DNA of 62,899 bases, the filler included, from Vannella sp. (taxonomy: Eukaryota): NCBI GenBank assembly GCA_023345925.1. It is 8 parts of 8 records of this genome, joined end to end, with 100 filler letters (N's around TTAATTAATTAA, not from the genome) between each part and the next. Parts side by side here need not be neighbours in the genome. Positions count along the whole stretch, not along the records: positions 13,155 to 24,383 come from JAJQQN010000249.1; 7 more parts are not named here. One strand, given 5' to 3'. The notes beneath the pieces were generated by a model, which did no database searches, was not told the DNA's origin, and worked only from the letters and a program-made list of their open reading frames with translations. The stretch's first letter is position 1. Each line of letters opens with the position of its first letter. Both the position numbers and the translations under genes were made by a program. Below, piece by piece: positions 17,126 to 62,432 of the stretch.

Positions 17126-19909
17126 ATGGAGCCACATTGGGCTTCCAAACCGCTCCCCCGTCCTCCCAATCGGCCTGAGGCATCACCAACACCGCCCAGA
17201 GCCATCCCAGAGATTCCTAAGAGAGCGAATCCACCAAAGAGCTCTGAAAGTCCCACGAGCGGATGGGTCAACGTCCCTCGAGAGCGTCCCTCCACCGTTG
17301 CTGGGGAGATGAACGTCTTTGCCATTGGTACAAGAGACGGGCAGTTGGGATTCAACTCAGCACCTTCGAGTCCTCAGCGTAGCATCAACGATCTACGCTC
17401 TTTTGCAGGCCGGCGGAGCATCGCCCCTCCCCCGCCGCCCCCTTCGGACAGCGAAGATGAGCTGCCACCCTCAGACAGTGGAATGTCATTCGGAGAAGAC
17501 GAAGCATTGCCACCTCCCTCCTACGAGGACAGCCACGAGGATTTGGGGGTGTTGGGGCTTCCTGATGTGCCAGGTGTCTCCCTGTTTGATTCTTCGGACC
17601 TCGTAGGAACTACTACACTTCTAAACCACCCGGAGTATTCCATGCCTCAGCGAGACGTCCCAAGCGTCATGGAAGAGGACGATATGGTCCCGCCTTCCTA
17701 CAGTGACAGCTTTGAAGACCCCTTAGCGGGGAACATAGACCTAAGCACCATCGAAGACGACGAAGGAATCGAAGACACAGAAGAAACCGCCCGCTTATTG
17801 GAGCAAGCTCGACTGCAAGAGGAGAACGAGGGCGAGGATTCTCTGGAGGCTTGCAAGTTCGTCGTGCAATGGAGCGAACCAGGCATGGCTCCACCTATTC
17901 CCTCTCGCAACGACCCCTCTCACCTTCTTAGTGAAGACGGAGCGCGCCAATTCATCAAGCAGAAGGAGGAAATCCCTGACGCCTACAAGATGATCGGCAC
18001 AGACCCTCGTTTCACCCGTTTAAGGGTCAAATGGGCCCCAAACTTTGTCCAGAAAGAGGGTATCATTCAACTGTGCAAGAACATGGTCGATCCCACCTCC
18101 CTTCCTTACCTTGGAGTTCTCTTCCACGCTGACCGCGTGCGTTATGCCAAAAGGGGGCACAAGATCATTGAAATGGCCGCACAACAGGCTAGCGATGAGC
18201 TCAAGCCTTCTTTAGATACCATGCTTGGTGGCCAGGTCTGCCGGGGGCTGTCAGAGACAGCATACACGGGGATATCTGCGGCGTGCATGTTCTTACCTGT
18301 GTTGGATGTTATTCCAGGTGCTTCAGCTCAATTGATGCTCCTTGGTGCTATTGGAGGAAAGGCAGTAGAGAACTCTGCAGAGTGGGGACTGAAAGTGATT
18401 ATTTCAAAGACAGCTGGCCAAGTCACTCAGGCTGCCATGGAATCCACCGAAGCCTTTAGCGGGTTTGGCGAATCAAAGGCATTTTTAATCTATCTTGGGT
18501 ACCCTGCTACAGATGACCCACTCTATGCTGAGTGGGAGCCTTATCGTCTCAAGTTGAAGGCACTTTACGGATGCGCAGCGGAAGATGACCTGTTTAAGAT
18601 GAGGCCCAAGGGGAAGGCGCTCCAATTCTTAGAGCAGGAGGAGCAGGATAGCGGAAAATCGTATTCAATTGAGATTCCTCTTCTCATCCTGCTTTGGCGC
18701 TCTTACCAATGCTGGGACGATCTCTATTGGGACCGAATCGTGCGCGTTAAAGATAACGCAAAAGCAACTACACGTGAGAAGTTGGGACTTCGGCGGGAGC
18801 TAACTCTCCAAGAAAGGCATAGAATGAGAGATTATCGTGCCTTCCAGGATACAGTGAATGTCATCGAGAACAGCCCAGCAATCGATCCACAACTTAAGAT
18901 TCTCAGGGTGAATCGGAAGAAAGAGATCGTCGAGTTGATGACTCGCGCGTTCCTCCATTCTCCTCATGTTTCGTATCTTTTCTCTCGAAAGAGGACGAGA
19001 GATGAGCAGAAAGACCGCTTGCAATGGTTCTTGCGGATGGTTGTGGACTACTTTATGGCCAACAACGCTTTCTTCTGGGGCTACTTGGGCGTGGATAAGA
19101 GGATCAAGTCAGTTGCTATCTGGGAGAGACCCAGCGAGACAGCTTCTATTTCCTTCTTGAGTTTACTGCGAACTTCAGGAGCCTTTAAACTGGGTCCAAA
19201 GCGCTGGAAGCTCATGTCTGATGTCCTATTCAGGACAGAAGAGATCCGAAAGCAAAATATTCGCGGGTTGAAGTGTTGGATGCTCCACTGGCTTGCCGTG
19301 GACCCCGACCATCAGAACGCGGGATTGGGTCGTTTGCATGTGGAAAACACGGTTAGAAGGCACGAGGAACCCGTTTATGCTCAAGTGTATGATAGTGAAC
19401 CGGAGGTGATGGAGTTCTTCAAGAAACTCTGCTTCATTCCAGTCGCGAATGAAGCCTCAAGGTTCTCCATGTATGGAATGCCTGTTTCTGTTATTGCATA
19501 TTGGCAAGGCATTCAATCCCCTGATGAGCTTCGCGCTTTGATGCCCGCAAAGAGAAAAAATCCGCTTATGGTCACTTATTCTACTCTCCGAAAGGCGGGC
19601 TCCATTCCCTCCATCTTGGCAAGGAGCACAGACGCCCAGTTAAGACTGACCCACCAGGAGACTTTGACTAACTCTACCGAGAATAAGTTATTGAGGGAGG
19701 CTCAGCAGCGTTATGAGGAGACAGCCACCCTTTTGGACCATCTCAAGATGGACTTTGCTTCGCTTCCAACCGAAGGGCGAGAGGAAGATCCGCTTGCCCA
19801 AGCGCTTGCCTCCAAGATCAAAGAATATCAACACTTACAAGAGACTTATCGCGCTTCCCTAAGCGATGCGAAGCATAATCTCAAGACCTTAACGCTCGGT
19901 TCGCCCTAA
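17126..19909 (+). CDS. Large protein: Pro/acidic disordered N-terminus, unknown middle region, GNAT acetyltransferase domain, C-terminal coiled coil
   Basis: Intronless ORF of about 928 aa; GNAT motif A WMLHWLAVDPDHQNAGLG and SVAIWERP. Confidence 0.75.
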   Translation: MEPHWASKPLPRPPNRPEASPTPPRAIPEIPKRANPPKSSESPTSGWVNVPRERPSTVAGEMNVFAIGTRDGQLGFNSAPSSPQRSINDLRSFAGRRSIAPPPPPPSDSEDELPPSDSGMSFGEDEALPPPSYEDSHEDLGVLGLPDVPGVSLFDSSDLVGTTTLLNHPEYSMPQRDVPSVMEEDDMVPPSYSDSFEDPLAGNIDLSTIEDDEGIEDTEETARLLEQARLQEENEGEDSLEACKFVVQWSEPGMAPPIPSRNDPSHLLSEDGARQFIKQKEEIPDAYKMIGTDPRFTRLRVKWAPNFVQKEGIIQLCKNMVDPTSLPYLGVLFHADRVRYAKRGHKIIEMAAQQASDELKPSLDTMLGGQVCRGLSETAYTGISAACMFLPVLDVIPGASAQLMLLGAIGGKAVENSAEWGLKVIISKTAGQVTQAAMESTEAFSGFGESKAFLIYLGYPATDDPLYAEWEPYRLKLKALYGCAAEDDLFKMRPKGKALQFLEQEEQDSGKSYSIEIPLLILLWRSYQCWDDLYWDRIVRVKDNAKATTREKLGLRRELTLQERHRMRDYRAFQDTVNVIENSPAIDPQLKILRVNRKKEIVELMTRAFLHSPHVSYLFSRKRTRDEQKDRLQWFLRMVVDYFMANNAFFWGYLGVDKRIKSVAIWERPSETASISFLSLLRTSGAFKLGPKRWKLMSDVLFRTEEIRKQNIRGLKCWMLHWLAVDPDHQNAGLGRLHVENTVRRHEEPVYAQVYDSEPEVMEFFKKLCFIPVANEASRFSMYGMPVSVIAYWQGIQSPDELRALMPAKRKNPLMVTYSTLRKAGSIPSILARSTDAQLRLTHQETLTNSTENKLLREAQQRYEETATLLDHLKMDFASLPTEGREEDPLAQALASKIKEYQHLQETYRASLSDAKHNLKTLTLGSP

Positions 19910-19985: not shown

Positions 19986-22371
19986 CTAGTTGTTGGGGTG
20001 ATTCATTTCGTCTAAATAGTCATCCAAAGCCTCTTTGCTGCCGGGCTACTTACGGGTGAGAAGCAAGGAGTGGAGAGGAAAGGACAGCGAAAACAAAACC
20101 TACAGAAAAGGGAGCGCCAATTCCCCAAAGGTAGTCAAGAACGTCAACGAAGCCACCATGCAGTGCAATATCAAAAGCAGTCTGTAACAGTTCTGGAGGG
20201 GAAATCGTCAAAAGGTGGAAAAGAAAATCTGCGTTAACTCACACCTAAAGGTCACCGCAGCTCAGATGCGTTACTTACGGGAATATCCCCCTATTTACGA
20301 GTATTAGATACAAAGATGATTGGCCTCTTCATGACTAAGGTCCCTACATCTGCTTGGAGTTGCCCTTGACCACCCCGCTCTACTAAGAGTTTGACAACGT
20401 CAACGTGACCTTCAGTGCATGCCCAAAAGATCGGTCGGTCCTTTGCTAGATTAGAAGAGAGGAGTGAGAGGACGTTGGAGACAAACCGTTCCATTTGCCT
20501 GCAGTCAAAGGTGAGACAGGCAGTAAAAAACAAACAAGCTTACCTTGGAATTCACTTGGTCGAGACCTCCAATGTCTAGAAGAAGCTGGACGGTTTCAGC
20601 GTGACCTTGAAGACTGGCGTAGTGAATAGGTAGCGCCTTATGTACTAGTGAGATGCGTTGGCATGCCCAAATCACAAGATAGACTCACTCCGTCTGAATC
20701 CTTGGCAAAGATTGAGTTCCCTGTTGAATCAGAAGTGGTGGGGATACTCACTGGAGCCAAGGAATAGCTTGGGCCAAGGATGCTCACTAAAAGCCTAATT
20801 ACTTCCTCATGTCCTTCTTGGCTAGCACATGAAATCGGGAGCGACTACAACAGATTCAGGAGCGGTTTCAGTTTCTTAAGAATAACGCACGCCTGCTTGA
20901 GTCTACAATTCATGTTAACCGATTAAGGAAAGCCTAAGAAGCCAGCTTACCACTTCTTGGAGTTGATCTTTCCCCCCAAACTCAACCAAAAGGCGCACAG
21001 CGTCGACACATCCGGACAGGCAGGCTCGGTGTACTGGGAGTGCCTGTGCAATGGATTGGTGAATTAACTTTCTTCTTTAAGAGTCTCTTCACAGACCCCT
21101 TCTTCATCCTAGGACTGAGTTAGACCCTTCACCCAAACGTCAAAGTATCCACACACTCTGCAGGTAATCTGCTTCATCCCACTGTGGGAGAGGAGAAGCT
21201 GAGCAATGTCGGTGTGATGTTCCATCACAGCAATGTGAATAGCTGCGTATCCCTGAGAGTTCCAGTGAGATTTACCTTCCGAACAAATAGAAACCCACCC
21301 CTGGATTCTCTTGTAAAAGTAACTGCTTCTCCGCTTCACCCGTTTCCAGAAGAAGCCGAGCAATGCCGATTTCGCCTCCCATTACAGCAAAGTGGAGCGG
21401 GAGAAGCTGAAATAGAAGTTAGTTTCCTTTTCTTTCCCTTCTGGGTGAATGTCTTGCCCCCATCTTGGTGCCAACGAGAAGTTGGTCCGAACCGGCACTC
21501 ATTATCAACACTCGGACCACTCCTTCATGGCCCTGCTGACAGGCATAGTGGATTGGAAGATTCTGAATGAATTCTTGAGTATTAATCTACCTAATGTGAA
21601 CGATCTTACGCCATCTGAGTCCTTAAGAGCCTGGTCAGGGTCCAACCAATGGTGAAAGAAGGGATTCCTTACCGAGGCCAGCGCCTGCTTGCTTCCCCCA
21701 GCCTCTACAAGCAATTGAACGACCGAATCACATCCATTCAGGCTTCCAAAGTGAATAGGAAGGCTCTACAAAGCGCCTGGTAAGAAGCACAGATGGCGAG
21801 CAAATCAGACCTCCTCACTCCGTCCTCATCCTGCAAGGGATCAGCTTCTAATCGAAACCCAAGATGCTTTGTAAGTGTGAGGAGCACCTACTTCAAGGTA
21901 AAGCTGTTCCTCTCCGCCAAGATCGAGAAGTGCCCGAACAAGATCAGGATTGCCGCCTTGGCACGCCATGTGGATCGCTCCACTCTATCAGTAAGACCAT
22001 TAGATAGATCGGGGATCTTTAGACATGCTCCAACGTACTTGATCGGCTTCCTACGGAGGCTAAGTGGGTGATGGGAGGTGGAAAGCTTCTCTTACTCGTT
22101 GCTGGAGCAAGCCTTTGCCTTTCATCTCCAACACAACTTTGGCACTCTCTATATCACCTGCTCTGCACGCCAGAAGGAGCAAAAGAAAGGCAGAGGGCCC
22201 GTTTCCAGTTCCCAAACGCAAAAGTACCAACCCACGCTCACACGTTGCTCTCAAAGCAGCTCTCCACTGCTCCTGCGTCCCTCCTTCTTCTCTGAAGGCT
22301 TCCAATAGTCCCCGCGCGGTCGCATAGTCCCCAGCCGCCAGCAAAGCGTTCGTCAACCTTTGAGTCTCCAT
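19986..22371 (-). CDS. Ankyrin-repeat protein encoded by at least 20 exons, including eight 12-nt microexons
   Basis: Exons: 22096-22371, 22039-22050, 21892-21984, 21819-21830, 21673-21765, 21610-21621, 21458-21562, 21299-21406, 21157-21252, 21097-21108, 20951-21043, 20891-20902, 20752-20844, 20689-20700, 20544-20636, 20487-20498, 20348-20440, 20279-20290, 20104-20181, 19986-20045. The joined frame is open and gives about 11 repeats (DxDG-xLPIHxAxxxGHxxxVxLL). Confidence 0.88.
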
Positions 22372-35821: not shown

Positions 35822-38800
35822 CTATTGGGCACCTTGTGGGTTGGGCAACAGAGCGCGAAGTCGCACTGGCACTTCGCCTTCGCACAGAACATACTCGCGG
35901 CTATCAGCCAGGGCCTTATCGAAGTCTGACATGGGGAACATGAAGGGTTTGGCGTCTTCCTCCAGGAGAAGACAGTGAGTGCACGGGACGAAGCTTTCCA
36001 CATCAGTCAATCCAAGAGAGGAGTTAAGAGAAGTGAGGGTTTTGAGGAATGACAAAAGGTCTGTCGCGGCTTGCTCCCCGCGGACAGTGATGTGGAGGGT
36101 CTTGTCCGCCGGAACTAGTTTGACGAAAGCACTGCCACCGGCCGCGTTGGAGAGAATACTGCCGTTTCTCCAGTAGTTCTGAATCTCCCAGTTGAGGGAA
36201 TGAACCACTTTGCCAACAATACGAGGGAACAGAGTGTTCGGCACGAATTGATAGTGGATGGTGCGGCGGAACTCCGGCTCTTCCATCTCATAGCCAGGCG
36301 CCCACATCAAGTTCAGCGAGGCCAATGAAGGCGTCTGCTCTTCTTCCAGAAGCTCAGGGAAGAAGATGCGACCTTGCTCCTTGAGCCGCATGAGCATATC
36401 GAAGCGCTCTAGAAGCATGAGAATGTACTCGTGATACTTAACCGGATACAATTCGGGATCCCAAATATTCTGAAAGTCACTGCGAGCCACCATTCCCTTC
36501 TTGGCGTACTTTTTGATGCCGTTGAAAGAGGAAACCAAATCCACAATCCACTGGGGGTTGAGGAAGACAAGCGTTGGGCAAACATCAGCAAAGCAGACCA
36601 AAATGCCACTGTCGTTCATGAACCGCATTGCCTCTTTGACAGCGTCAGGAGCTACGCCGCAAGCCATTACTTCTTCAGAGAAGCGCTTGAAGGATGTTAG
36701 GGGAGTCTTCATCAGGTCATTGAGGAGCTCGATGCGCTCTTCCAGGTATTGGTATCCTCGCATGACTTGCTGAGGGATGTACGAGCGACTGGAAGCCACT
36801 TTCAGGACTCTTTCAAGAACAGCATCCGTCTTCTTGTTAAACTTGGCTGAAATCGATTCGTAACCAGCAATATTGGGGAAGCGGTCCGCCACTAACCCTT
36901 TGATGCGACCCCAAAACGCTTTTCGGTGCTTACCGTTGCAAGTTTTGTCATCCAAATGGGTTCCAACGATAATGATGGGCACTTGGTCATTGACTTTGCG
37001 AGTGATAAGCTCGAGCCATTGTTCAAGACGCGCATCCTCGCTGGGAGGGTCCATCATGTTGCACACGAGCAAGTAGATTGCACGCTCAGAGAGGAAGACT
37101 TGGTGTGTGTTATAGTATTGCTGGTCCCCGCTAAAGTCCCACGTACTGAACAGAATGTCTTTCAGTTTGAGGTTACTCGTGACAATGCCTTTCGTCGGTT
37201 CGGTCTCGAAGCTCTTTGTTGAGCCCTTGAGACCTCCCTTCGCCTTGGAGCGGAAAGACTCGTAAAGGCAGCTCTTACCCACACCCTCCTTGCCGACAAT
37301 CATCAATTTCATCCGGCTGACAGAAATAGGGACTTTGGGGAGTTGCTTGACGAGATTGAGAGTCATCTGCGAGCCTTCCTCGCGCTTCTCAGCTTTCTCA
37401 GACTTTTCGAACTTCTCAGCCTTCTCAAGGACATCTGAAGGCATTCCTTTGAGAGGGACATTCTGGTATAGGCGCAGGGTTTCGAGGGACACCAGGGTAC
37501 TGAGGAAGTGGTCGAGATTCTTCAGGCGGTTCTGGCAAAGATCCAATACTTTGAGGAACTTGAGAAGCTGAAGCGTTTTGGGGATGGCGGTGAGCTTATT
37601 GACTTGGCCATATAATTCGACAAGTCGCCACATGTTGCCGAAAGACTCTGGCAGCTCAGTAATCATGTTGTTCGAGATATTCAGCAGTTCCATGTTGTTC
37701 ATAAGGGTGAATTCGTTGGGCAGTTTCGAGAGCTTGTTGAAGGACAGGTTCATCCGACGCATCAACCCGAATGTCCCAAAGTACTCGGGGATGATGGAGA
37801 TTGCGTTGTTTGAGATGTCCAGCTCTTCCAAGCAAGGAAGATTGGGCTGCTCTTCTGGTAATTCAGTTAGTTTGTTGAAGGAGAGATTCAGTGCTCGCAT
37901 GCTGGCAATGAAGAAGAGACTTTCAGGCACCTCGGAGATGAGATTGTTTTGTACGAGGAAGATCTCCAAGTGGCTCAGGTTAGACATCTCAGTGGGGAGC
38001 TTGGTCAGTCGGTTATTGGAGAAGTCAACGCGCTTCAGACTTTGCATAAGGCGGAACATCTCTGGGAGTTCCTCAATCATATTATAGGAGCATTGGAGCT
38101 CCTGGACGTTGACTAATTCGCAAAGCTCGTCTGGAAGGCGAACCAACTTGTTGTAGGAAAGATCCAACTTCATGAGGCGGTCGAAATTGACAATGGCAGC
38201 GCCAGGAATGTCTGTGAGAAGGTTGTTGGAGGCCAAAAACTGTTGTACTTGTGACATCTCTTCAATCATAATGGGAAAGGTCTCCAATTCGTTGTAAGAG
38301 ATGTCAAAGTACTGCACGCGCTCAGCTCCTTCCAACAGGCGGGTCACCAGCTGCCGGTAGTTTCGCCCTGAAAGGACCAAGTCCGTGGACTTGCCATACT
38401 TGAAGGCTTGGTAGGCATAATTAGAGTTCAGGAGCCACTGGATAGACTGCAAGATATGCGCTAAATAACCCCGGTCTGTGGCTTGGAAGACTCGCTCTTG
38501 AATATCGAATCGAGTGATATTCAGATTGATCTTCAGAAGGCGCTCGATGGCCTGGGCCGCCTTGATGCCGATGTTGTTGTTGGAAACGTCAACGGCTGTA
38601 ATTTGCTCGTTGTTCAGTAGTCCCTTGGTCAGAGCGGACATGGAGTTCTCGGCATCCCAAATGCCCCGGTTGGAAAGATCAATCTTACGAGCTACGTTGT
38701 TCTCGGATAAGGATGCGTTGAGCTCCTTGAGTTTGCCACGAGGAAGTCGGCAGGAGGAGAGAGCTATCGTTGAGAGTGTGGGGTCGTTCGCGCGGACTTG

Positions 38801-40474
38801 GTCAAAAGTCTTTTTGACATAGGCGCGCACTTTGCTGTTCTCAATGATGCCAACTTGCTCTGCCACAATAGTGGCTCGCTTGGCGACGACTTTGCCAGCG
38901 TCTATGGTGCGGTCACGAAGGAGAAGACCTCCTGTTCGGCGAGTTTCTCCTCCTATTCCCGGTCCTGAGGAAGTTGTTTCGTGCATGCTGTAGTCTACTT
39001 GGGTACTGGCCCCAATGTACTCATCTTGGTCTTCGGTAGCAGTAGCTGCGGGATTGGGCGCTCCCATGCCCATACCCATTCCCATCATTGGTGACATGGC
39101 AAAGAGAGAGGCTGAATCCTGATACTCTGTATCTAGCAGCCCTGCCGGAGCCACCAAAGTGCGAGGAGCAGTGGGCATCTTACCACGAGCAGGGCCACTG
39201 GTAGCACCAGGAACAGCAACGGGTGAGTACATTCCGGAGCTGGAGTTACTGTGGGAGCCGTTCGAAGGCGCCACAAAGCCCATTTCGTCTTCGTCGTCGT
39301 CTTCACCAAAGTCAATGAGGCGAGTCTTGGGCCCCAACTCCTCATAGTCTTCCATGGGAAGGTTTGGATCGTACACAAAGTTGGGATCAAGAGGTAGCAG
39401 CCCACCATCATCCATAGGCATACTAGGGTCAAAGAGCATCTCGCCTGGGTCCATGTTAGGGTCGAAAGGCATCAGTCCGTCAGAGAGGCCCATTTCAGGG
39501 TCAAACGGCATCAAACCGTCCATCGAGAGGCCCATGTTGGGGTCAAATGACAGTGGTTCTAATGTGAAGCTCATGCTTGGGTCTAAGGAGAAGTCAGGGT
39601 CCAAAGGAATGCTGGGGTCGAACGACATCAAGCTGGGGTCGAGGGCGGGAAGTTCTTTGGCGAAGACGTCTTCAGTCTGCAGCTGTGGTAACCCGCTTGT
39701 GGATCCGCGCTGCGTCATTTGACTGATTCCTCCTACTCGACGTGTAGGGCGGTTCTCCTTTGTGGGGCGGGTCAAGGACGAACGCGACTGTCCGGAGGGA
39801 AGACCTCCTTTGATGCTACCGGGGAGGCCTGTCTTACCGCGGAGGGTTCCTCCAAAGGGCATGTCTCTTTCAGGGTTGTTTAAAGGTATGCCAATCACTG
39901 CTCCTGGAACACCACTGCGTGAGCGTCTTGGGTCCACAGGAGTCACTCTCAGAGAGCCAGGAGTGCTCCCAGGGACGCTTCGTAAGGTCCCAGGAAGAGA
40001 GGAGTTGCCAGCGTATCCTGCTTGGTTCCGCATGGAGTTGAGGTTGGGAGCGGCACTAGCTCGAGGGGCCTGGTTGGGGACAACGCTCCCTCGGAGGGTT
40101 CCTCCTGAGTTGAGTTGAGAGGGGACGTTACTCTTGTTCCTCATTGTCCCGTTGAATACGCTGGGGACGGCACTCCTATTGCGTAGGGTGCCTTGTGCGA
40201 CATCCACGGAGGACTCTCGCTTGGGGGCTCGGTTGTTCTTGGTGGGCCGTGCCATCTTACTCGACACTCCTTTACCAGGCTCTGTTTCATTCGGTTGTGT
40301 CTGCTTTGCAGGTGTTTGAGCGGGTGCGCTCAAGTGGGGACTCAAGACGAGAGTCACGCTGGGAGGCAACGCCAACGTTGGGGGTGGTGGAGGTGCCGCC
40401 CCTTTCTCTGCGTTCATGAAGATTCGGTCTCGCAACTCATTGTTAAGCTGCGGCTTCGGCGGTCGAGTTGTCAT
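35822..40474 (-). CDS. Roco-family protein (RI/tropomodulin-like LRR + LRR + ROC GTPase + COR), no kinase domain
   Basis: Many LxxLDLSxNxLxxLP repeats; ROC MKLMIVGKEGVGKS, TWDFSGDQQYYNTHQVFL, VGTHLD; COR VFLNPQW, FFPELL. Stop codon followed by AATAAA. Confidence 0.92.
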   Translation of the reverse strand: MTTRPPKPQLNNELRDRIFMNAEKGAAPPPPPTLALPPSVTLVLSPHLSAPAQTPAKQTQPNETEPGKGVSSKMARPTKNNRAPKRESSVDVAQGTLRNRSAVPSVFNGTMRNKSNVPSQLNSGGTLRGSVVPNQAPRASAAPNLNSMRNQAGYAGNSSLPGTLRSVPGSTPGSLRVTPVDPRRSRSGVPGAVIGIPLNNPERDMPFGGTLRGKTGLPGSIKGGLPSGQSRSSLTRPTKENRPTRRVGGISQMTQRGSTSGLPQLQTEDVFAKELPALDPSLMSFDPSIPLDPDFSLDPSMSFTLEPLSFDPNMGLSMDGLMPFDPEMGLSDGLMPFDPNMDPGEMLFDPSMPMDDGGLLPLDPNFVYDPNLPMEDYEELGPKTRLIDFGEDDDEDEMGFVAPSNGSHSNSSSGMYSPVAVPGATSGPARGKMPTAPRTLVAPAGLLDTEYQDSASLFAMSPMMGMGMGMGAPNPAATATEDQDEYIGASTQVDYSMHETTSSGPGIGGETRRTGGLLLRDRTIDAGKVVAKRATIVAEQVGIIENSKVRAYVKKTFDQVRANDPTLSTIALSSCRLPRGKLKELNASLSENNVARKIDLSNRGIWDAENSMSALTKGLLNNEQITAVDVSNNNIGIKAAQAIERLLKINLNITRFDIQERVFQATDRGYLAHILQSIQWLLNSNYAYQAFKYGKSTDLVLSGRNYRQLVTRLLEGAERVQYFDISYNELETFPIMIEEMSQVQQFLASNNLLTDIPGAAIVNFDRLMKLDLSYNKLVRLPDELCELVNVQELQCSYNMIEELPEMFRLMQSLKRVDFSNNRLTKLPTEMSNLSHLEIFLVQNNLISEVPESLFFIASMRALNLSFNKLTELPEEQPNLPCLEELDISNNAISIIPEYFGTFGLMRRMNLSFNKLSKLPNEFTLMNNMELLNISNNMITELPESFGNMWRLVELYGQVNKLTAIPKTLQLLKFLKVLDLCQNRLKNLDHFLSTLVSLETLRLYQNVPLKGMPSDVLEKAEKFEKSEKAEKREEGSQMTLNLVKQLPKVPISVSRMKLMIVGKEGVGKSCLYESFRSKAKGGLKGSTKSFETEPTKGIVTSNLKLKDILFSTWDFSGDQQYYNTHQVFLSERAIYLLVCNMMDPPSEDARLEQWLELITRKVNDQVPIIIVGTHLDDKTCNGKHRKAFWGRIKGLVADRFPNIAGYESISAKFNKKTDAVLERVLKVASSRSYIPQQVMRGYQYLEERIELLNDLMKTPLTSFKRFSEEVMACGVAPDAVKEAMRFMNDSGILVCFADVCPTLVFLNPQWIVDLVSSFNGIKKYAKKGMVARSDFQNIWDPELYPVKYHEYILMLLERFDMLMRLKEQGRIFFPELLEEEQTPSLASLNLMWAPGYEMEEPEFRRTIHYQFVPNTLFPRIVGKVVHSLNWEIQNYWRNGSILSNAAGGSAFVKLVPADKTLHITVRGEQAATDLLSFLKTLTSLNSSLGLTDVESFVPCTHCLLLEEDAKPFMFPMSDFDKALADSREYVLCEGEVPVRLRALLPNPQGAQ

Positions 40475-46712: not shown

Positions 46713-49700
46713 TTAAGATTGGAATCGGTTACCACATTCCCCACAGAACTTGGCACCGACTACTCGAGGGACACCACATGAAATGCAAAACTTCTGGCCC
46801 GCTGGAGCTCCCACTGGTGGGCCACCCCGACCACCCGCTGGAGCTCCTGTTGGTGGACCCCGACCACGGGTTGGTCCAGTTCCACGTGTGGCTGTGGGAG
46901 GGGAACCACGCAGGATGGGGTTGGGTCCTCTGAGTGGCACTCCTCGAGAGCGGATGGGGATCCCTCTTCCTCGGGGTGGAGGCTCATGACCACTGGGGGG
47001 TCCTGCTTTGAGAGATCCTTCCTGCCGACTCAAGGGCGGATTACTTGATTGCCTTCGTACAGGCAAACCCCGGCGGGCCCCAGAAGAGATGACTGCTGTG
47101 GGAGCAGTTACAGTCCTAGGCTTATTCCCAGCTACCACGCTCTGACTAAGAGAGCCTGCCAACCAACATTTAGGGCATTCTGTCGTCTTCTAGAAAGGCC
47201 TCTTACCGACTGGAGGCTTGGTGAAGATAACAGACATGTTACTTCTTGTCCCATTTCTCAACACGCTTTGCCTTCTCTGAGTCACCAGTGAGAAGGGCCC
47301 ATAGTTTGGATAAAAAGCTCACCTGGGCAAGTGGCACTACGATAGATTGACTGCCAGGAACATTCTCCTCCATTTGATCGTCGAGGGTGTAGATGACCTC
47401 ATCGTCATCATCATCGTAGCCGCTGTCCTCTATTTTAGGAGAAGGGGGTGGACGTTGGGGAGCCTCCCTGCGAACTCGACGAGAGTATTTGGTTGCGGGG
47501 GTGGAATAGAGAGCGCGAGAGCGGGCTTGCGCCGGCCTTGCTGCCGGATTCTGTTGGAGGAACTGCAAAATAGAAGGATCTACCTCTTTTGCCATCTGAA
47601 GGGCACTTCCTTGTGGGGAGTTTTGCGCCGGATTGGCTCCCTTTTCAATTAACAGCTTAACCACAGCCAGATTAGCAAAGTTCCGGTTAGATACAGAATA
47701 ATGGAGCGCGCTAAATCCTGCCTTGGAGACGAGGTTAACTTTGGCACCTGCTTCAATAATCCAAGTGATCCCCACAATGTTTCCTCGCATTGCTGCTTCA
47801 TGAATGGGAAGGATTCCTTCGTTTGTGGGAGCGTTCAATGAAGCTCCCTTAGCCTTGACTATTCCCAGGACTCTGATGTACGTTTCTTTGTAGGAGGGAG
47901 ATCGGAAAGAGTTGATTCGCATCAGGTAGTGAAGAATCGTACTTCCACTGGCTGTTTGAGCATTCACATTGACTCCGTAGGCATTTGTCAGTACTGTGAG
48001 AACATCTAAATGTCCTGCAGATGCAGCACAGTGCAAGGGAGTCCACCCTTTCGTATCGCTGTCGTTGACACTGGCATTCCGGATGAGGAGTCCAAAGACA
48101 GCGTCCAATTGATCCGCCTCTGCAGCCAAGTGCAAGGCAGTTCTCCCATCTTCATCCCTTGCGCCGCCAACATCCGCTTGATTTGGTAAACCCAAGGTAT
48201 TCCGACGTAAAGGAGTCGAGGCAAAGTCTCGCATGTAAACCATCAAGTCCGGGTCAGCTTTCTTCGCAACATCGAGTGGAGAGCCGACGTTGGGGGCCTC
48301 CATAGTTCTATCTGCACCATTTTTAAGAAGGAGAGTAACAATGTCCTTTCGTCCCACCCTAACTGCATAATGCAGTGGCGTCTCCCCAGCACTTTCAGGT
48401 GTTAGAAGTACTCTTTGGCAGCTGGTTAGTAGTGGACCTACTTGTTAGGCGAATTAACTCTTGCCATATTGTCAATCAGCCAAGAGACCGCGTCAATCTT
48501 GCCTCCCTTGATGGCTTGGTGAAGCGGAGTTTCCCCAAAGTCAGCAATAGTGTTGAGATCGACATTGGCCCGCTTAAGAATGCTCATCACTGACGCCCAC
48601 TTCCGCTCGTCTACGTCCAAGCGAGCGTTGCACATGTAATGAATGACTGACTTGTTGTTGTTAGCTTGCTTATCAACATCAATAACGGGCTGCTGCAAGA
48701 GGACAATCATCACATCAAAATTGCCCTTCTCAGCAGCGGCGATTAAAGGCGTGTTTCCGTTCAAATCGACTGCGTTCACATCCACTGGTCCCTTTAGAAG
48801 CTCGAGAGTAGCAGCCACATCATTCTCCAACACAGCACAATGAAGGGCAGTCTGCCCATATTCATTTCTGTCTTCTGTGTAACTTGCTTTAGCCTCTACA
48901 ATGTAGCGGCACCTTGCAGCTATGTCCTGCACAATTTGAGACGCCTGAGGAGTCTTAAAGCACACTGGTTGATTCAAAGTGTCATACTCTGCACAAAATG
49001 AGTATCCCTGTGAACAGCTATCAGAGAGGAGTCTTTCCTACCAATATAGAAAGTGTCAGATGCTTGTTCGTCCAAGACTAGGTTGGAAACGCTCCCATAG
49101 AATTGGTTCTCTCCGTTCTTACCGCCTTTCAGCCGAATGGATTCCTTGTCAAGCACCAAAGTGCGGCTGGAGAACTTCCCTTTTTGCTCGTGCTTGACAG
49201 AATACTCGACATCATTGAAAGTCACTGGTAAGGAAGTGGGAGGGGGCGCTTGGCTGACGTATTCGAGGACTAATTGAAGAAAAGTCTTGTTCTTGAGGAT
49301 TTCTCGGTGGTCAGCCCCTTCAATCTCGGCAACTTTCACATTGATGGTTTCTTTCCAGGTTTTACAATAGGCCATGGAAGGATACGGCACAGTCCCATCC
49401 CCTCCACGTTTTTGTCCCTTTAGAGAGTTTTGGCGCGTCTTCTTGGTCTCGTAAGCAATCCCGCCTTCACACTTGAAGTTACTAGCCTGTCCCCGACTAT
49501 CCAAAGCGAACGTAGTGATGGGCTTCTTGCTGGGATTGTCCTTAAAGAAGTAGAAAGTCTCTGTCTTCAGGTTAATGCCGTAAATGGCATAGATACGGTC
49601 TACTGGAGGTGCTCTCAAGACATCAGTGATACTTCCCACAAGTGGGTCGCCCTCAAAGAAGTCCCGATAGCGGTTATAAACCATTTCGGCTCCTCCCTGA

Positions 49701-50927
49701 ACCAAGGCTTCGCGATTGTCCAGGTTGAAGACCTTCCCCGTGCTGTCACGGTACTGGCTGTAGGTCGTGAACTCGTGGTCAATGGGAGAGATGTAAGGGA
49801 ACATCCAAGGAGAGCTTCCCAGACTTCGAGCCAGCCGAATGCCTTCATGAGGGAACAGGAACGCTTCCAGACCCATTCGATCCCCCGTTACCATAGCCCG
49901 TAGCAACTTTGGAGCCCCCACTACAACCAAGAAGTGCTCTTAGTCAGCAGAAGCTGGCTCAGGACGGTACATACACCACAAAGGACCGATGGCGAGCCAG
50001 TTATCCAAGTACTTGGAGGCCCATTGGCGTCCAGCTTTCTTCTCCACCCAGCGAGAGAAGTAGTGGACCACGCGGTTGCCCAAGCTGTGAGCAACGAGCA
50101 CCACTTTGGTGTTGTCGTTGTTCTGATACATTTCCTCGATCTTTCGCTTCATCTCAGTGAAGTAACCGTCCCTCTCTTCCATACGCTTTGGTGGTAAGCG
50201 CCAGTCGTACTATGACACGTTAGAGAAGGCTTCTGTGGCTTCGAGTGAGTCCACTCACCGGCATGGCGTCGAGATTGAGCCCGTCCACGTAGCCCAGGTC
50301 CTGTCGTAGGTGTCAGTCAGCAGATGATGCTTCCTTATAGAAGCAGTCACCTCAAGCATCTCTGCCAAAGGCCCCATCACGTAGGAGAGAGCGTCAGTGA
50401 TAGCTCCGGGGTCCAAGTACTTGCAGCCTTTCAGGCCCTTGACGGGCCGGATTTTGATGCCTGCGTAAGGTCAGAAGGTTGTACAGGGATGCTCTGACTC
50501 GCTCTGACCTTCTGGGTCTGAAAGACCGTCGGCTGCCAGACACATGTGAGCCATCCAGCGTCTCTTTGGGTGTTGTGAGTAGCTGGAGCTCTGGTTAGTG
50601 CGTAACTTACTTTCAGAGCCTCATCAACATCATCAGGAGCCTGTTCTTCTGCTCCACTCTTGCGCTTGTTCTTCTTATCTGGAGGACTTGTCAACGGCTG
50701 CTCTTCGTTTGGGCGTTCTCACCTCCTGCTGGACCAAAGGGCGACCACATCTTCTCAAAGCCAATACTAGACATGCTCAACCAGATGCGTTTGCCCACCC
50801 AAGCTTCGAAAGGCGACTCCGTCACCTTCAAACAAGAAGAGCACAATCCAGGCACAATGATGACCGGCCGCTTTGGTGTGTAGCCATCCGCACGATACTT
50901 TGTGCCCAACGACTTTCCTGCAAACAT
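46713..50927 (-). CDS. LCAT/PDAT-family acyltransferase fused to a PH-like domain, ankyrin repeats and a C-terminal zinc ribbon, spliced
   Basis: PVIIVPGL, YDWR, AHSLG, GDGTVP, ADHREIL. In-frame introns link this to GQTALH/GETPLH/GRTALH ankyrin repeats and terminal CISCG...FCGECG. Confidence 0.82.
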
Positions 50928-57894: not shown

Positions 57895-59658
57895 ATGATC
57901 GGGACAGCGGCTCAGGTCGTTCTGTCTCTGCTCGTCGGCCTTGTTGTCATTGGCGTAGTAAAGGCGGCTTTGTCTGTTGGCAGAAGGAAGAGGGATCTGA
58001 TGAAGCTTCGAGTAGACCTGAAGAAGGACGCTAACTTTGAACGCGTGATCAGGAGCCGCAATGAGCACACTGAGGAGTACCTGTTGAAAGGGTGCTATCA
58101 GAAGAGTCTGATTCCAAGGGCGGAGGACATTGTGGGTAGCAACCAGTGGGAAACTTGCTACGACTTGGCTCCCGCTTGCAGGAACCCAGACTGGGTCGCT
58201 CTGTCGGAGTATATTGACGCTTTAAGCATTCACAATCCGAATGCGCGTAGAGCTGTGGCTGAGACTCTTCTTGAAAGGCTCGAACACGGCATCTGTGGAG
58301 GGAGCTTGCCCTTTCCACTCACTTGGCTGCTTCCTAAGAAAGCTTTGAACGGTGACTTGCCTTTCCACGCTCTCCAAGTACTCCAATTCAGCTTGATGAA
58401 TACTCCAAGTATCCCAACAGCGATTGCCAGTTGCAAGAACTTCATCAAGAAGGAGTTTGGTGGTGCTCCAGACCCGAACCAGCCATCCATTTCCTTCTAT
58501 TTGCCGAGTTCCTGCCAACTGAATGAAGCTGTGAGCTATATGGAGAGTACTCTGCCGAAAGAGAGAAATGTGGTCCCACTGAATCCCAAACTCCTTCCTG
58601 GATTGTGCAAGGGCTGGGCCCCTCACAATCCTCCTCTGCATGCTGGAGAGGACGCGCTTCGTAACAACACGTTCCAGGAGATTTGTAACCGCCTCAGCTT
58701 TAACCACGCTCTCACTATGGGATTAGCCACTCCAATTGTCATTGAGAGCGTGTTTACTGTTGTTATGCCCGATGGAACACTCATTAAGCGTATGGATGAG
58801 TTTGTGTCCTATCTTCAGAGCAAAGGATGCGTCTTCCGAGCTCAAATTCGAGTGGCGACCGCGGTAATGGGCTTCAACTACTCTTTGGAGCGGGAAGCAA
58901 TCGGATTTGAAGCAGACGGAGACAAGAAGTACTTTGATATTCCTTTTGCCTTCTTTTCTAGGACTGGGGTGTACTCTGACAAGTACAGTGCCGAGGTTTT
59001 GGCCCCTCTTCTTCACACTGGTTTGGACCTTTTCTGTGAAGGCCAATTGGAAGGATTCGGTCCTATCAACTTCCACCTGCAATTCTACATGCAAATGGGC
59101 CAGTGTGTCCAGTGGAATGAACGCAACGGTCCGCAGGATCAAATCAAGTGGAATCCGGGTCGCGTTATCGACAGTTGGACGGATCCGAAAGAGATCGTCC
59201 GCCTTGTCCACCTGTGTGCCATTTATGCTTGCGTTTGGAATGATATTGCCAAGCGCGAAGAGCTGGACTCTGGAGGTTACGGAGTTATTGGTGTTTGTTC
59301 TGATGCCGTGGCACCGATTCAGCACTGCCTGAGCGGGAGAGCAACAATGTACCCTATTTTGGGAATGGGCGAGTATCGAGTGAAAACCATCAAGGAACTG
59401 GTCCATCTGGCAGAAGACCCTCTCTTGCAATTGACAAAACAAGATAGATCTGCTCTCAAGGATCTAGCAAGCGCTGTTCGCGATCTACCAAACGACAACT
59501 ATCTAGATCCTCCACACTATCTCGATACTGTCGAACGCATCAACACTTCCATCCCATTCGAGGAAGGAACTGAGCCTTTCGCATGCTTAGTCGTTGCCCG
59601 GAAGATCCTCCGAGATGAGCTGGAGTCTGCAGGGAAGTACTTTAACGGCAAAATCTGA
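57895..59658 (+). CDS. Uncharacterised protein with N-terminal membrane anchor
   Basis: Intronless ORF; hydrophobic VVLSLLVGLVVIGVV; enzyme-like motif GGYGVIGVCSDAVA. Confidence 0.75.
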   Translation: MIGTAAQVVLSLLVGLVVIGVVKAALSVGRRKRDLMKLRVDLKKDANFERVIRSRNEHTEEYLLKGCYQKSLIPRAEDIVGSNQWETCYDLAPACRNPDWVALSEYIDALSIHNPNARRAVAETLLERLEHGICGGSLPFPLTWLLPKKALNGDLPFHALQVLQFSLMNTPSIPTAIASCKNFIKKEFGGAPDPNQPSISFYLPSSCQLNEAVSYMESTLPKERNVVPLNPKLLPGLCKGWAPHNPPLHAGEDALRNNTFQEICNRLSFNHALTMGLATPIVIESVFTVVMPDGTLIKRMDEFVSYLQSKGCVFRAQIRVATAVMGFNYSLEREAIGFEADGDKKYFDIPFAFFSRTGVYSDKYSAEVLAPLLHTGLDLFCEGQLEGFGPINFHLQFYMQMGQCVQWNERNGPQDQIKWNPGRVIDSWTDPKEIVRLVHLCAIYACVWNDIAKREELDSGGYGVIGVCSDAVAPIQHCLSGRATMYPILGMGEYRVKTIKELVHLAEDPLLQLTKQDRSALKDLASAVRDLPNDNYLDPPHYLDTVERINTSIPFEEGTEPFACLVVARKILRDELESAGKYFNGKI

Positions 59659-60002: not shown

Positions 60003-62432
60003 ATGCCGACTGAACTGGAGGTCCCTTGGTGTCAAGAGGACTTTGAGTGCCAGAATATGAGCTGTGCGCGTCGTCACAGGACGGCGAAGTGTACACGCAG
60101 CTGTGTTGACTTCTTCTGTGCAAACCGCCACCCCGTTTCAAGGCCTCTTTTGTGCCCTGAGGAGCTGCAGTGTAGGCCTTGCTCACTAGCAATATGCTCT
60201 CATATTCATGTCTGTCGCGATGCTGCTTGCCAGGTCCTCTTACCTCAGGTGTACAACGAGAAGATCATCTTCTTTCTGATGAACTCCCTTCCTGATGAGC
60301 TGCTGCACTTCCAAGACCTGATCGTTTCAGTCCATGCTAACAATCAGATCACTTCACTCTCTGCAGAGGAAGGAGCTCAACGCTTGTTAGAACATCTGTG
60401 GAGGACACTTGTCTCCTCCCCCGGAACGTTTTACCGCCGGGATCTGTTCATCTCGTGTCCCCCTCCCGTTACACAGATCAACCAATGGAAGAACTCGTAT
60501 ATGGCAAACTCTGAAGTGATAACGTCGTTCGAGGAAGGGATGAATGGAAGCTATCGGGTCATCTTCTTCACCACAAACCAACGCAAGTGCGAGCCCCTCT
60601 GGCATCTGATTAACCAATGGTGTGAACCGCCACAATCCACTCTTCATCTCAACCCTCCCTTGCAAACCAATTTCTTCCTGTTACCCACTCCCACTGACAT
60701 TCCTCTTCCTTTGGATGAAGCAAAGCCAACCAAGCGAAACAGAGTGCGGAAGCCTAGGACTAGGAAAGCAGCTCAAGGCTCTTCAAATCACCAGAGAATG
60801 GATCCAACTCCTAAACGAGGGAGTTCGAGATTTGGGATGGCCGCTTCTCCACGTTCCTTTGTGGCCCACGAGTTGAGTGATTCTCCTGTCAAAAAGGAAG
60901 GTAATCGAACAACATTTGGTGCCGCTATGGAGCAAGACAAACGTTCTGGACCTGGAGATAGGGCAAAGCAAAAGAGTGGTGAAGAGTTTGTCCCTCAAAA
61001 CTACAGCGCTTCCAGAGACAGTCTCCCATTCAAGCGAGGGCGCAATCTTATTTCTGTTGACCCTTTGCAGATGGAATTCTTAACGAGGAGGCATTTGCCT
61101 CTTCTCGAAGAGACCGAATACGACGCTCATCTTCGTTTACTGTCCTTCGTGGGTTCTGAAGGAAAGTTAATGGTGCAAGTGCGGGACGTTCTTCGAGTAC
61201 TCTCGTCATTGGCATGTCAGAAAATGCCACCTGGAAATGCCATCGGGCAATACCAACAATGCTGTTCACTAACGCTGAAAGAAAATGGGATTCCCTGTGA
61301 GCTGATTACTGTCCCTAAAGTTCAGGGGCTATGGCTCCTTGGAGAAGGTAATGCGGTGGAGAATGGAAGGAGAATTTTAGAATCTCTCTCTTTACAACAG
61401 TGTCCTATTCCAGTACCCGAGAGCTGGGAAGCTCCTACCGCTGTCAATCAATCTACAAGCAAGTTGCTAAGAAAGCATTTTTCGATTGATTCTGCAGTAA
61501 CTCTTCAAGTGAGTGAAGGAATGGCTTCCCGCACCATCCTTCTCAGTAGCTTTATTCGATCTGAATTGCGAGCTGCAGAGAAGACGATCACAGACAGCTT
61601 CAAACAGTTCAATGTCCCGGATACCCAACTTTCTGCATTTCAGTCCTGGAATGAAGAAGAACCTCCCATGCCGCAGAACTCTCGCTTCTCATCCCAACCC
61701 TTGCATAACCTGGCGAATGCTTCCAGATTTTCTTATGATGACCCATCTGCCGTGTTAGAATCTTCTGCTCCAAAAGGAAACAAGGACTCTCCTGCTATCG
61801 AGGATGAGACTTGGGGTTGGCCAGAAACTGATGTTCATGTTGCCCTCAGAGATGCTGGTTATCAACCTGAAAAGCTCCCCCAAAGAATAGAAAGACTCCC
61901 AAGAAGGAAGAGAGACGCTCCAGAAGAGCCAAATCCTGACGACTTTTTTGGGGGTGACTTGCAAATTGCACGCAAAGATATTGATTATCGTCTTCTTGAA
62001 GAGTTACCTTCAATAGAAAGCAGACTGAGAGACGCTCCAGAAGAACCAAATGATGAAGACGCTTTATGGAAGGGAGAACGACTTCACCTGAACTCCGCTA
62101 AAAAAGTTCCAATATCACGTGACCAGAGAAAGTGGCTCAAGGTGAACCTCCGCGCATTCAAGCAAGCCTGTCCTGAAGGGACCCACATCATTGTATCCAA
62201 AGAAGTTTCAATTCGAGGCGAACATAATTCTGAAGTGGAGGAATCTCTCATGCTCCTCTTGAACCGTCTTCAAAGTGTTGATGTCTCTCACTTGAATGGC
62301 GAAGCATTAGAACTCATTCAAGACATCGCAAGGCAGAGTGGCTGCGTCCTAGTTGATGAAAGTCGCTTGGTAGGAGTCCCAGAAATTCTCTTTGGTCTCG
62401 AGGATTTCATTCCAAAAGACAATGAGCTTTAA
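60003..62432 (+). CDS. Uncharacterised protein with N-terminal Cys/His zinc-finger-like repeats
   Basis: Intronless 809-aa ORF; CQEDFECQNMSCARRH, CTRSCVDFFCANRH, CPEELQCRPCSLAICSHIH. Confidence 0.7.
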   Translation: MPTELEVPWCQEDFECQNMSCARRHRTAKCTRSCVDFFCANRHPVSRPLLCPEELQCRPCSLAICSHIHVCRDAACQVLLPQVYNEKIIFFLMNSLPDELLHFQDLIVSVHANNQITSLSAEEGAQRLLEHLWRTLVSSPGTFYRRDLFISCPPPVTQINQWKNSYMANSEVITSFEEGMNGSYRVIFFTTNQRKCEPLWHLINQWCEPPQSTLHLNPPLQTNFFLLPTPTDIPLPLDEAKPTKRNRVRKPRTRKAAQGSSNHQRMDPTPKRGSSRFGMAASPRSFVAHELSDSPVKKEGNRTTFGAAMEQDKRSGPGDRAKQKSGEEFVPQNYSASRDSLPFKRGRNLISVDPLQMEFLTRRHLPLLEETEYDAHLRLLSFVGSEGKLMVQVRDVLRVLSSLACQKMPPGNAIGQYQQCCSLTLKENGIPCELITVPKVQGLWLLGEGNAVENGRRILESLSLQQCPIPVPESWEAPTAVNQSTSKLLRKHFSIDSAVTLQVSEGMASRTILLSSFIRSELRAAEKTITDSFKQFNVPDTQLSAFQSWNEEEPPMPQNSRFSSQPLHNLANASRFSYDDPSAVLESSAPKGNKDSPAIEDETWGWPETDVHVALRDAGYQPEKLPQRIERLPRRKRDAPEEPNPDDFFGGDLQIARKDIDYRLLEELPSIESRLRDAPEEPNDEDALWKGERLHLNSAKKVPISRDQRKWLKVNLRAFKQACPEGTHIIVSKEVSIRGEHNSEVEESLMLLLNRLQSVDVSHLNGEALELIQDIARQSGCVLVDESRLVGVPEILFGLEDFIPKDNEL

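What the first reader, a model, noticed from the sequence alone, without database searches (positions are those of the whole stretch)
19986..22371. Ankyrin gene built from a periodic 93-nt exon + 12-nt microexon module, all phase 0
Seen in sequence: the ORF track shows only fragments here, but hand-splicing gives one open frame. Each 35-aa repeat is a 93-nt exon (31 aa, helix-turn-helix; six are exactly 93 nt) plus a 12-nt microexon encoding the hairpin/turn: EADQ 22039-22050, DEDG 21819-21830, DSDG 21610-21621, DEEG 21097-21108, TQAG 20891-20902, DSDG 20689-20700, ANGT 20487-20498, GDIP 20279-20290. All 19 introns are phase 0 and 18 are 45-61 nt; the period is about 205 bp. Established: ankyrin beta-hairpins form part of the ligand-binding face, and symmetric exons can be skipped without frameshift (cf. 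Schistosoma micro-exon genes). Inference: this could be a combinatorial-splicing or exon-shuffling system that diversifies a binding surface. I do not know of a description of this hairpin-microexon design. The ankyrin repeats in the 46713-50927 gene are almost intron-free, so this is not genome background.
Basis: partly seen in the sequence, partly recalled or inferred. Interest (0 to 1): 0.9.

Follow-up and report, generated by a model that had tools for sequence, protein, structure and literature searches.

The report
Ankyrin gene with microexon-coded turns
In a gene from what is probably a marine amoeba, eight of the turns between ankyrin repeats are each predicted to be spelled by their own 12-base exon between two ordinary short introns; the layout is likely a relic of ancient copying of one two-exon unit, not a system for varying the protein.

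Summary
The architecture holds at the DNA level. A 20-exon minus-strand model (22371-19986) gives one open 458-aa ankyrin frame. All 19 introns are phase 0 and 18 are 45-61 nt, like other introns in the window (median 50.5). All 8 long gaps hold an in-frame 12-nt AG..GT exon (shuffle chance about 5e-11). Four of them encode D-x-x-G, the ankyrin beta-turn, and differ mostly at silent sites. Including them fits outside ankyrin profiles better at 8 of 8 junctions. No RNA was available, so splicing is predicted.

The diversification idea is not supported. Each linker has one microexon and no spares, the microexons follow the structural consensus, the units show no DNA-level likeness (silent sites 20% identical), and skipping would need introns twice the usual size. 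No paralog or ortholog was found, but no genome is held.

Best reading: an old tandem expansion of a two-intron repeat unit, constitutively spliced, in a probable vannellid amoeba. One-exon-per-repeat genes (Ectocarpus, Tetrahymena) are published. This scan noted microexons in animal SOWAH ankyrin loops on other DNA, but not this periodic 93+12 module. New variant of a known kind.

The parts
22096..22371 (-). exon 1 (276 nt): ATG, helical N-terminal part (weak TPR-like match) and first, cap-like ankyrin repeat; may hide an 81/84-nt intron
22039..22050 (-). microexon 1, EADQ
21892..21984 (-). 93-nt ankyrin exon
21819..21830 (-). microexon 2, DEDG (beta-turn positions 1-4)
21673..21765 (-). 93-nt ankyrin exon (no Pfam hit alone; aligns in register)
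21622..21672 (-). intron 5, 51 nt, stop-free in frame
21610..21621 (-). microexon 3, DSDG
21458..21562 (-). 105-nt exon: repeat with the turn (TKMG) fused, no separate microexon
21407..21457 (-). intron 7, 51 nt, GC-AG
21299..21406 (-). 108-nt exon: repeat with the turn fused; the next intron lies one codon earlier in the repeat than the others
21157..21252 (-). 96-nt ankyrin exon
21097..21108 (-). microexon 4, DEEG
20951..21043 (-). 93-nt ankyrin exon
20891..20902 (-). microexon 5, TQAG
20752..20844 (-). 93-nt ankyrin exon
20701..20751 (-). intron 13, 51 nt, stop-free in frame, no clear branch point
20689..20700 (-). microexon 6, DSDG
20544..20636 (-). 93-nt ankyrin exon
20487..20498 (-). microexon 7, ANGT
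20348..20440 (-). 93-nt ankyrin exon
20279..20290 (-). microexon 8, GDIP (3' boundary less certain; a 16-nt form is possible)
20182..20278 (-). intron 18, 97 nt, the only long one; alternative acceptors possible
20104..20181 (-). 78-nt exon, C-terminal cap-like repeat
19986..20045 (-). last exon, short acidic tail and stop

Best explanation
This is a predicted 20-exon gene for a 458-aa ankyrin-repeat binding or scaffold protein of a probable vannellid amoeba, whose 93-nt-exon plus 12-nt-microexon period is likely the relic of an ancient tandem expansion of one repeat unit carrying two phase-0 introns, and whose microexons are likely included constitutively. Shown in the sequence: splice signals, phases, lengths, open frame, and the microexon register at ankyrin positions 1-4 (D-x-x-G). 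Inferred: (a) one 35-aa repeat gained two introns either side of its beta-turn, and the ~205-bp unit was then copied by unequal crossing-over until it filled the array; (b) the intron before the turn is absent in two adjacent repeats, most simply by loss; (c) ~50-nt introns are recognised by intron definition, so a 12-nt exon needs no special machinery and skipping it would take an unusually long intron; (d) the encoded turn is structural and under purifying selection.
For: The same two intron positions recur in every repeat, all phase 0, against 14 of 26 phase 0 among the background introns kept. In-gene repeats resemble each other more than 74 outside 35-aa repeats do (leave-one-out BLOSUM 31-55 against mean 30, max 39; p=6e-5), and share Leu2 (6 of 9 vs 2 of 74) and Gln27 (7 of 9 vs 0 of 74). 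The expansion is old: intron pairs align no better than background, and fourfold sites are 31 of 157 identical. In 417 outside repeat junctions, the four residues before the exon register are D (43%), x, x, G (69%). Inclusion beats skipping at 8 of 8 junctions with a general outside profile and 8 of 8 with an ungapped 35-aa profile; 118 of 120 outside proteins align better to the included form. Among the four D-x-x-G microexons, 11 codon differences are silent and 7 are not, and the first two bases of the D and G codons never vary. Microexon donors score as well as other donors and far above random GT (p=1e-5). Skipping needs 103-126-nt introns (166 for the last) against 42-67 nt background. 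Periods of 31 aa or less are 20 of 1193 outside. A family-blind gene finder trained on background introns recovered 5 of 8 microexons exactly at two of four intron penalties, and 2 of 8 at a third.
Against: There is no transcript evidence and no ortholog, so inclusion levels are unmeasured. A first 35-aa profile built from a gapped alignment of 29 units favoured skipping at 3 of 8 junctions; it was redone without gaps. Three microexons (EADQ, ANGT, GDIP) score below zero on the outside turn matrix. Seven of 8 introns that precede a microexon are multiples of 3, against 6 of 26 background (Fisher p=0.002, post hoc), which a neutral relic does not predict. The background set is 26 of 41 predicted introns outside the gene; I dropped 15 by judgement, 10 of them over 70 nt. 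For two dropped cases a short-intron model restored conserved motifs; the rest were not checked. In Drosophila 68.9% of internal microexons are alternatively spliced (PMC8042270), though that is an animal genome.
Confidence: 0.7

Rival explanations
1. Splicing-based diversifier: skipping of microexons or of whole exon+microexon modules would yield binders with different repeat numbers and turn/helix combinations.
For: Every internal exon is symmetric (phase 0, multiple of 3). The microexon carries positions 2 and 3, two of the six positions randomised in a designed ankyrin library (PMC4308713). Repeat-per-exon LRR genes of brown algae are alternatively spliced (PMC11378527).
Against: One 12-nt candidate per linker in 7 of 8 gaps and no spare or inverted exons. 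Microexons converge on D-x-D-G rather than vary. Donors are not weak. Skipping removes the Asp1/Gly4 turn and needs an intron twice background size. No signalling domain, and no family found in the searches made.
Confidence: 0.12
2. Regulated intron retention: the intron before each microexon would be kept at some rate, lengthening a loop (introns 5 and 13) or ending translation (the others) to tune protein level.
For: 7 of 8 such introns are 3n against 1 of 8 introns after microexons and 6 of 26 background. Introns 5 and 13 are stop-free in frame and use AAG acceptors; intron 13 has no clear branch point.
Against: The pattern was noticed post hoc. 5 of the 7 carry an in-frame stop, so keeping the frame gains nothing there. 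Two stop-free 3n introns is about what chance gives (my estimate).
Confidence: 0.08
3. Independent intron gains: an intron-generating element or a proto-splice preference would have hit the same two positions of each repeat in an already expanded gene.
For: The repeats are very diverged (34% mean identity). Outside 35-aa 'GG-xx-LL' ankyrin proteins are recorded as single long products from metagenome contigs, which suggests intron-free forms.
Against: The introns share no sequence, exon ends show no common proto-splice motif, and the in-gene repeats form their own group.
Confidence: 0.05
4. The locus would be silent or decayed, or several microexons are mis-called.
For: No expression data; ambiguity at both ends of the model.
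Against: An unbroken 458-codon frame through 19 canonical introns, silent-site bias in the microexons, and chance of about 5e-11.
Confidence: 0.05

Closest known systems
[quoted passage not shown]
   Same: Repeat units map onto fixed-length exons between same-phase introns, the sign of intron/exon unit duplication. The oldest Tetrahymena LRR genes also have introns back at background length (~50 bp).
   Different: Here the unit is two exons (93 + 12 nt) and the repeat is ankyrin. There are no spare or inverted exons, no recent likeness between units, no signalling domain, and no family found.
Drosophila sowah (FBgn0036302) microexons, FlyBase-tagged, 12, 3, 3, 6 and 27 nt (PMC8042270 Table S4 rows read)
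   Same: Tiny in-frame exons in an ankyrin-repeat gene; earlier notes of this scan place them in the inter-repeat loops (position not checked here).
   Different: In sowah, chains of 12+3+3 or similar exons build one or two loops. Here one 12-nt exon recurs periodically at eight linkers.
[quoted passage not shown] 2012, seen only as cited in PMC4986451)
   Same: Ankyrin-containing gene with many microexons in a microbial eukaryote.
   Different: Those are reported as multiple alternatively spliced 3-nt exons in NLR-type genes. This gene has no NACHT domain and no consecutive microexons.
35-aa 'GG-xx-LL' ankyrin proteins from metagenomes (P0084, P0398, P0408)
   Same: Same 35-aa period, with a Gly-Gly and a short predicted helix before the turn (single-sequence model of P0408, mean pLDDT 64, low confidence).
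   Different: They carry an N-terminal MYND-type finger (Pfam-listed for P0084; by eye for the others) and are at most 36% identical; none is an ortholog.
Schistosoma micro-exon genes (recalled; the paper was not held)
   Same: Symmetric microexons in a coding sequence.
   Different: As recalled, those are secreted proteins built mostly of microexons with shown skipping. Here 96 of 1377 coding nt are microexon and the protein is a folded repeat.

Membership tests
Ankyrin repeat proteins (PF00023 clan) | Helix-turn-helix repeat matching Ank profiles | tested here: met
   8 of 12 exon-sized pieces match PF00023 at E<=0.031, 4 of them above the gathering score; the exon profile finds 310 PDB sequences, led by ankyrins and designed repeats.
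Ankyrin repeat proteins (PF00023 clan) | D-x-x-G beta-turn before each repeat | tested here: met
   4 of 8 microexons are D-x-x-G and 5 of 8 end in G, in the register of the outside consensus.
Exon-shuffling repeat receptors (Ectocarpus ROCO/NB-ARC-TPR, Tetrahymena LRR) | Fixed-length exons between same-phase introns | tested here: met
   Six 93-nt and eight 12-nt exons; 19 of 19 introns phase 0.
Exon-shuffling repeat receptors (Ectocarpus ROCO/NB-ARC-TPR, Tetrahymena LRR) | Spare, inverted or inactivated repeat exons inside introns | tested here: not met
   Introns are 45-97 nt, too short for a 93-nt exon; a second 12-nt candidate occurs in 1 of 8 gaps.
Exon-shuffling repeat receptors (Ectocarpus ROCO/NB-ARC-TPR, Tetrahymena LRR) | Recent exchange: DNA likeness between units | tested here: not met
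   Intron pairs at background score; exon nt identity at most 54%; fourfold sites 31 of 157 identical.
Exon-shuffling repeat receptors (Ectocarpus ROCO/NB-ARC-TPR, Tetrahymena LRR) | Multi-gene family with the same exon unit | tested here: inconclusive
   No genome held; metagenome scans gave no such locus, but they did not return this locus itself either.
Exon-shuffling repeat receptors (Ectocarpus ROCO/NB-ARC-TPR, Tetrahymena LRR) | Alternative splicing or diversifying selection on repeat exons | not testable with these tools
   No RNA holder listed; no alleles or orthologs.
Tuber nank NACHT-ANK microexon genes | NACHT domain and consecutive codon-sized microexons | tested here: not met
   The model is ankyrin repeats with short ends only; microexons are single and 12 nt.
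SOWAH ankyrin family | Sequence orthology to SOWAH | not tested
   No SOWAH protein was fetched; treated as an analogy only.
Schistosoma micro-exon genes (features recalled) | Coding sequence made mostly of microexons | tested here: not met
   96 of 1377 coding nt.

The most novel reading that the evidence does not exclude
The amoeba uses a two-exon ankyrin module as a splice-assembled binder library: because turns and helices sit on separate symmetric exons, skipping modules in either register, or retaining the 3n intron before a turn, would give ankyrin proteins with new turn/helix pairings, a natural counterpart of designed ankyrin libraries, possibly for recognising prey, symbionts or giant viruses.
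Probability: 0.12. Interest if true: 0.8.

Novelty: new variant of a known kind. Interest (0 to 1): 0.42.

Why it matters
The gene has about 14 introns per kb of coding sequence in a window where many long genes have none, with intron positions that bracket one structural element. It is a clean example of a repeat array grown from a single intron-bearing unit, and of microexons that annotation would miss in a short-intron protist. If RNA showed module skipping, it would be a splice-diversified ankyrin binder in a single-celled eukaryote. The evidence here points to a fossil architecture instead.

Tried and rejected
No whole genome is held. No RNA holder was listed, which is no evidence either way; read laying could therefore not be used.

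A degenerate microexon+exon motif gave 3 matches in the window, all in this gene, against 0 in 100 shuffles. In viral contigs it gave 10 records (4 distinct stretches), none ankyrin-like. No motif scan of the metagenome collection was made, so a direct architecture search there remains open.

Protein-based scans with exon alignments found nothing in viral contigs and nothing in the first metagenome scan (193 pattern matches, 0 confirmed). The second gave 3 loci of 129 matches: two hold uninterrupted ankyrin frames and the third gave no hit to the exon profile. Protein searches returned only generic ankyrins; best identity over 250 aa or more was 36% among 340 proteins. Those searches score only the top ~8000 candidates or are swamped by long proteins, so absence of an ortholog is weak evidence. 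The Atlas gave no answer for an exon stretch.

A first gene finder with a flat intron-length prior gave nonsense. A predicted 5-nt exon in the RBR-type gene was rejected: the stretch is an ordinary exon. A hidden extra microexon in the 97-nt intron was sought by hand; the internal AG-GT-GT site would give a 2-nt exon out of frame.

Literature: ten searches, among them 'microexon'+'ankyrin repeat' (30 of 44 listed), 'micro-exon'+'ankyrin' (12 of 14 listed) and exon-structure terms, showed no paper on this design by title or abstract start. Street et al. 2006, the ANK2 exon paper and the Schistosoma MEG paper were not held; Iotti et al. 2012 was seen only as a citation. bioRxiv supplements are closed and genome annotations were not searched, so an annotated instance may exist unseen.

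Full report
Setting. The window is eight pieces joined by N-flanked spacers; the gene lies on one piece of about 11 kb. It is tail to tail with a 927-aa uninterrupted frame and head to head with a DUF829 frame. No genome is held. The organism is probably a vannellid amoeba: an RPL19 exon is 86% identical to a cluster that holds a Vannella robusta protein, and an actin-bundling protein falls nearest clusters whose commonest taxon is Discosea. Both marker genes lie on other pieces, so this placement assumes one organism; similar GC and intron sizes agree with that.

Observation. Twenty exons give 1377 nt with one terminal stop and 19 phase-0 introns (exon 17 corrected by 3 nt). Eighteen introns are 45-61 nt, one is 97 nt, one is GC-AG, and six exons are exactly 93 nt. 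Two adjacent repeats carry the turn on the large exon (105 and 108 nt), so the module is 8 of 10 linkers. Eight of 12 exon-sized pieces match Pfam Ank on their own.

Chance. All 8 composite gaps contain an in-frame 12-nt AG..GT candidate; shuffles give a joint chance of about 5e-11, and at most 0.1% per gap for D-x-x-G. A splice-motif scan found 6 such sites in 2386 nt of the gene strand and 5 in 123,412 nt elsewhere, 4 of the 5 antisense to known frames. A gene finder with no ankyrin knowledge, trained on background introns, recovered 5 of 8 microexons exactly at two intron penalties, 2 of 8 at a third, and printed no model at the fourth.

Background. Of 41 predicted introns outside the gene I kept 26 in recognisable genes. 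They are 42-67 nt, median 50.5, with the same donors, YAG/AAG acceptors and branch points. I dropped 15, of which 10 were over 70 nt; for the kinase and ArfGAP cases a short-intron model restores conserved motifs, and the rest were not checked. This gene has 13.8 introns per kb of coding sequence, while several genes of 800-1550 aa have none predicted. The ankyrin part of the 46713-50927 gene has one predicted intron among its repeats. No other microexon in the window survived checking.

What the microexon encodes. In 417 outside repeat junctions the four residues before the exon register are D (43%), x, x, G (69%). In a designed ankyrin library, Asp1 and Gly4 form beta-turn 1, and positions 2, 3, 5, 10, 13 and 33 are randomised on the binding face (PMC4308713, passages). 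The introns thus bracket positions 1-4 exactly. Inclusion scores better than skipping at 8 of 8 junctions with a general outside profile and with an ungapped 35-aa profile of 72 units. A gapped 35-aa profile of 29 units gave 5 of 8. 118 of 120 outside proteins align better to the included form. In the four D-x-x-G microexons, 11 codon differences are silent and 7 are not, the pattern of translated sequence under purifying selection. EADQ, ANGT and GDIP fit the consensus poorly. The 3' side of GDIP has alternatives that score lower (33.9/34.3 and 30.4/30.0 bits against 38.1/36.5).

How it arose (inferred). The in-gene repeats are more alike than 74 outside 35-aa units are to them (p=6e-5) and share private residues, which fits expansion inside the gene from one unit. 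The introns share no sequence and fourfold sites are 31 of 157 identical, so the expansion is old and units are not being exchanged now. Exon ends show no common proto-splice motif, which argues against repeated independent gains. The simplest history is a repeat with two introns, copied in tandem, with one intron missing from two neighbours.

How it is likely spliced (inferred). Short-intron genomes tend to define introns rather than exons (established knowledge, recalled; no paper found). Microexon donors are as good as the others. Skipping one would need a 103-126-nt intron and give a 31-aa period; periods of 31 aa or less are 20 of 1193 outside. There are no spare exons. Constitutive inclusion is the best guess (0.7). 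One pattern is unexplained: 7 of 8 introns before a microexon are 3n, against 6 of 26 background (p=0.002, post hoc), and two of them are stop-free.

Relatives. No ortholog or paralog was found; the best identity was 36% among 340 proteins. The metagenome scans gave three loci, none with this layout. These searches are weak for a gene cut into 31-aa pieces and did not return the locus itself. Similar 35-aa Gly-Gly repeats exist in unnamed metagenome proteins, so the repeat type is wider than this gene.

Comparison with what is known. Exons that span whole repeat units are common (PMC3995336, passages). One-exon-per-repeat arrays with shuffling are described for Ectocarpus LRR and TPR genes (PMC3341825, PMC11378527, passages) and for Tetrahymena LRR genes (PMC6564038, passages). 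This gene meets their geometric feature and fails the tests for spare exons and recent exchange. Microexons in ankyrin genes are known from Tuber nank (cited in PMC4986451) and Drosophila sowah (PMC8042270 Table S4 rows; lead from earlier notes). I found no description of a periodic 93+12 module in ten searches of the held library (listings only).

Verdict. The architecture is real and unusual, a new variant of the repeat-per-exon design, and most likely a constitutively spliced relic. Interest 0.42. The splice-diversifier reading has a probability of about 0.12 and would merit 0.8.

Noticed in passing
window 22095-20291, introns that precede microexons: 7 of 8 are multiples of 3 nt, against 1 of 8 introns after microexons and 6 of 26 background (Fisher p=0.002, post hoc). 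Unexplained.
   Followed up: partly
window 20278-20182 (-): The 97-nt intron holds an internal acceptor directly followed by two GT pairs, the second a perfect donor 50 nt before a good acceptor. It could be a recursive or vestigial splice site; no in-frame exon results.
   Followed up: partly
window 21614 and 20693 (-): Both DSDG microexons contain an internal CAG that the gene finder used as an alternative acceptor, giving a frame-shifting 5-nt exon.
   Followed up: no
whole window: Eight pieces joined by N-flanked 12-nt spacers, so neighbourhood across pieces means nothing.
   Followed up: yes
window 47239-50927 (-): Predicted fusion of an LCAT-like acyltransferase, ankyrin repeats and a low-complexity tail; 5-6 introns cluster in the LCAT-like 5' part.
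   Followed up: partly
window 35822-40474 (-): Uninterrupted 1550-aa LRR-Roc-COR (ROCO) frame with a long low-complexity N-terminus; its LRRs are not split into exons, unlike brown-algal ROCO genes.
   Followed up: no
window 17126-19909 (+): 927-aa uninterrupted frame with only a weak GNAT match (E=0.005), ending 76 nt from this gene's stop, tail to tail.
   Followed up: no
window 57895-59658 (+) and 60003-62432 (+): Two long uninterrupted frames (587 and 809 aa) with no Pfam match.
   Followed up: no
proteins P0084, P0398, P0408, P0353: Unnamed metagenome proteins with an N-terminal MYND-type finger and Gly-Gly ankyrin repeats, 35 aa in period where measured (P0084, P0398).
   Followed up: partly
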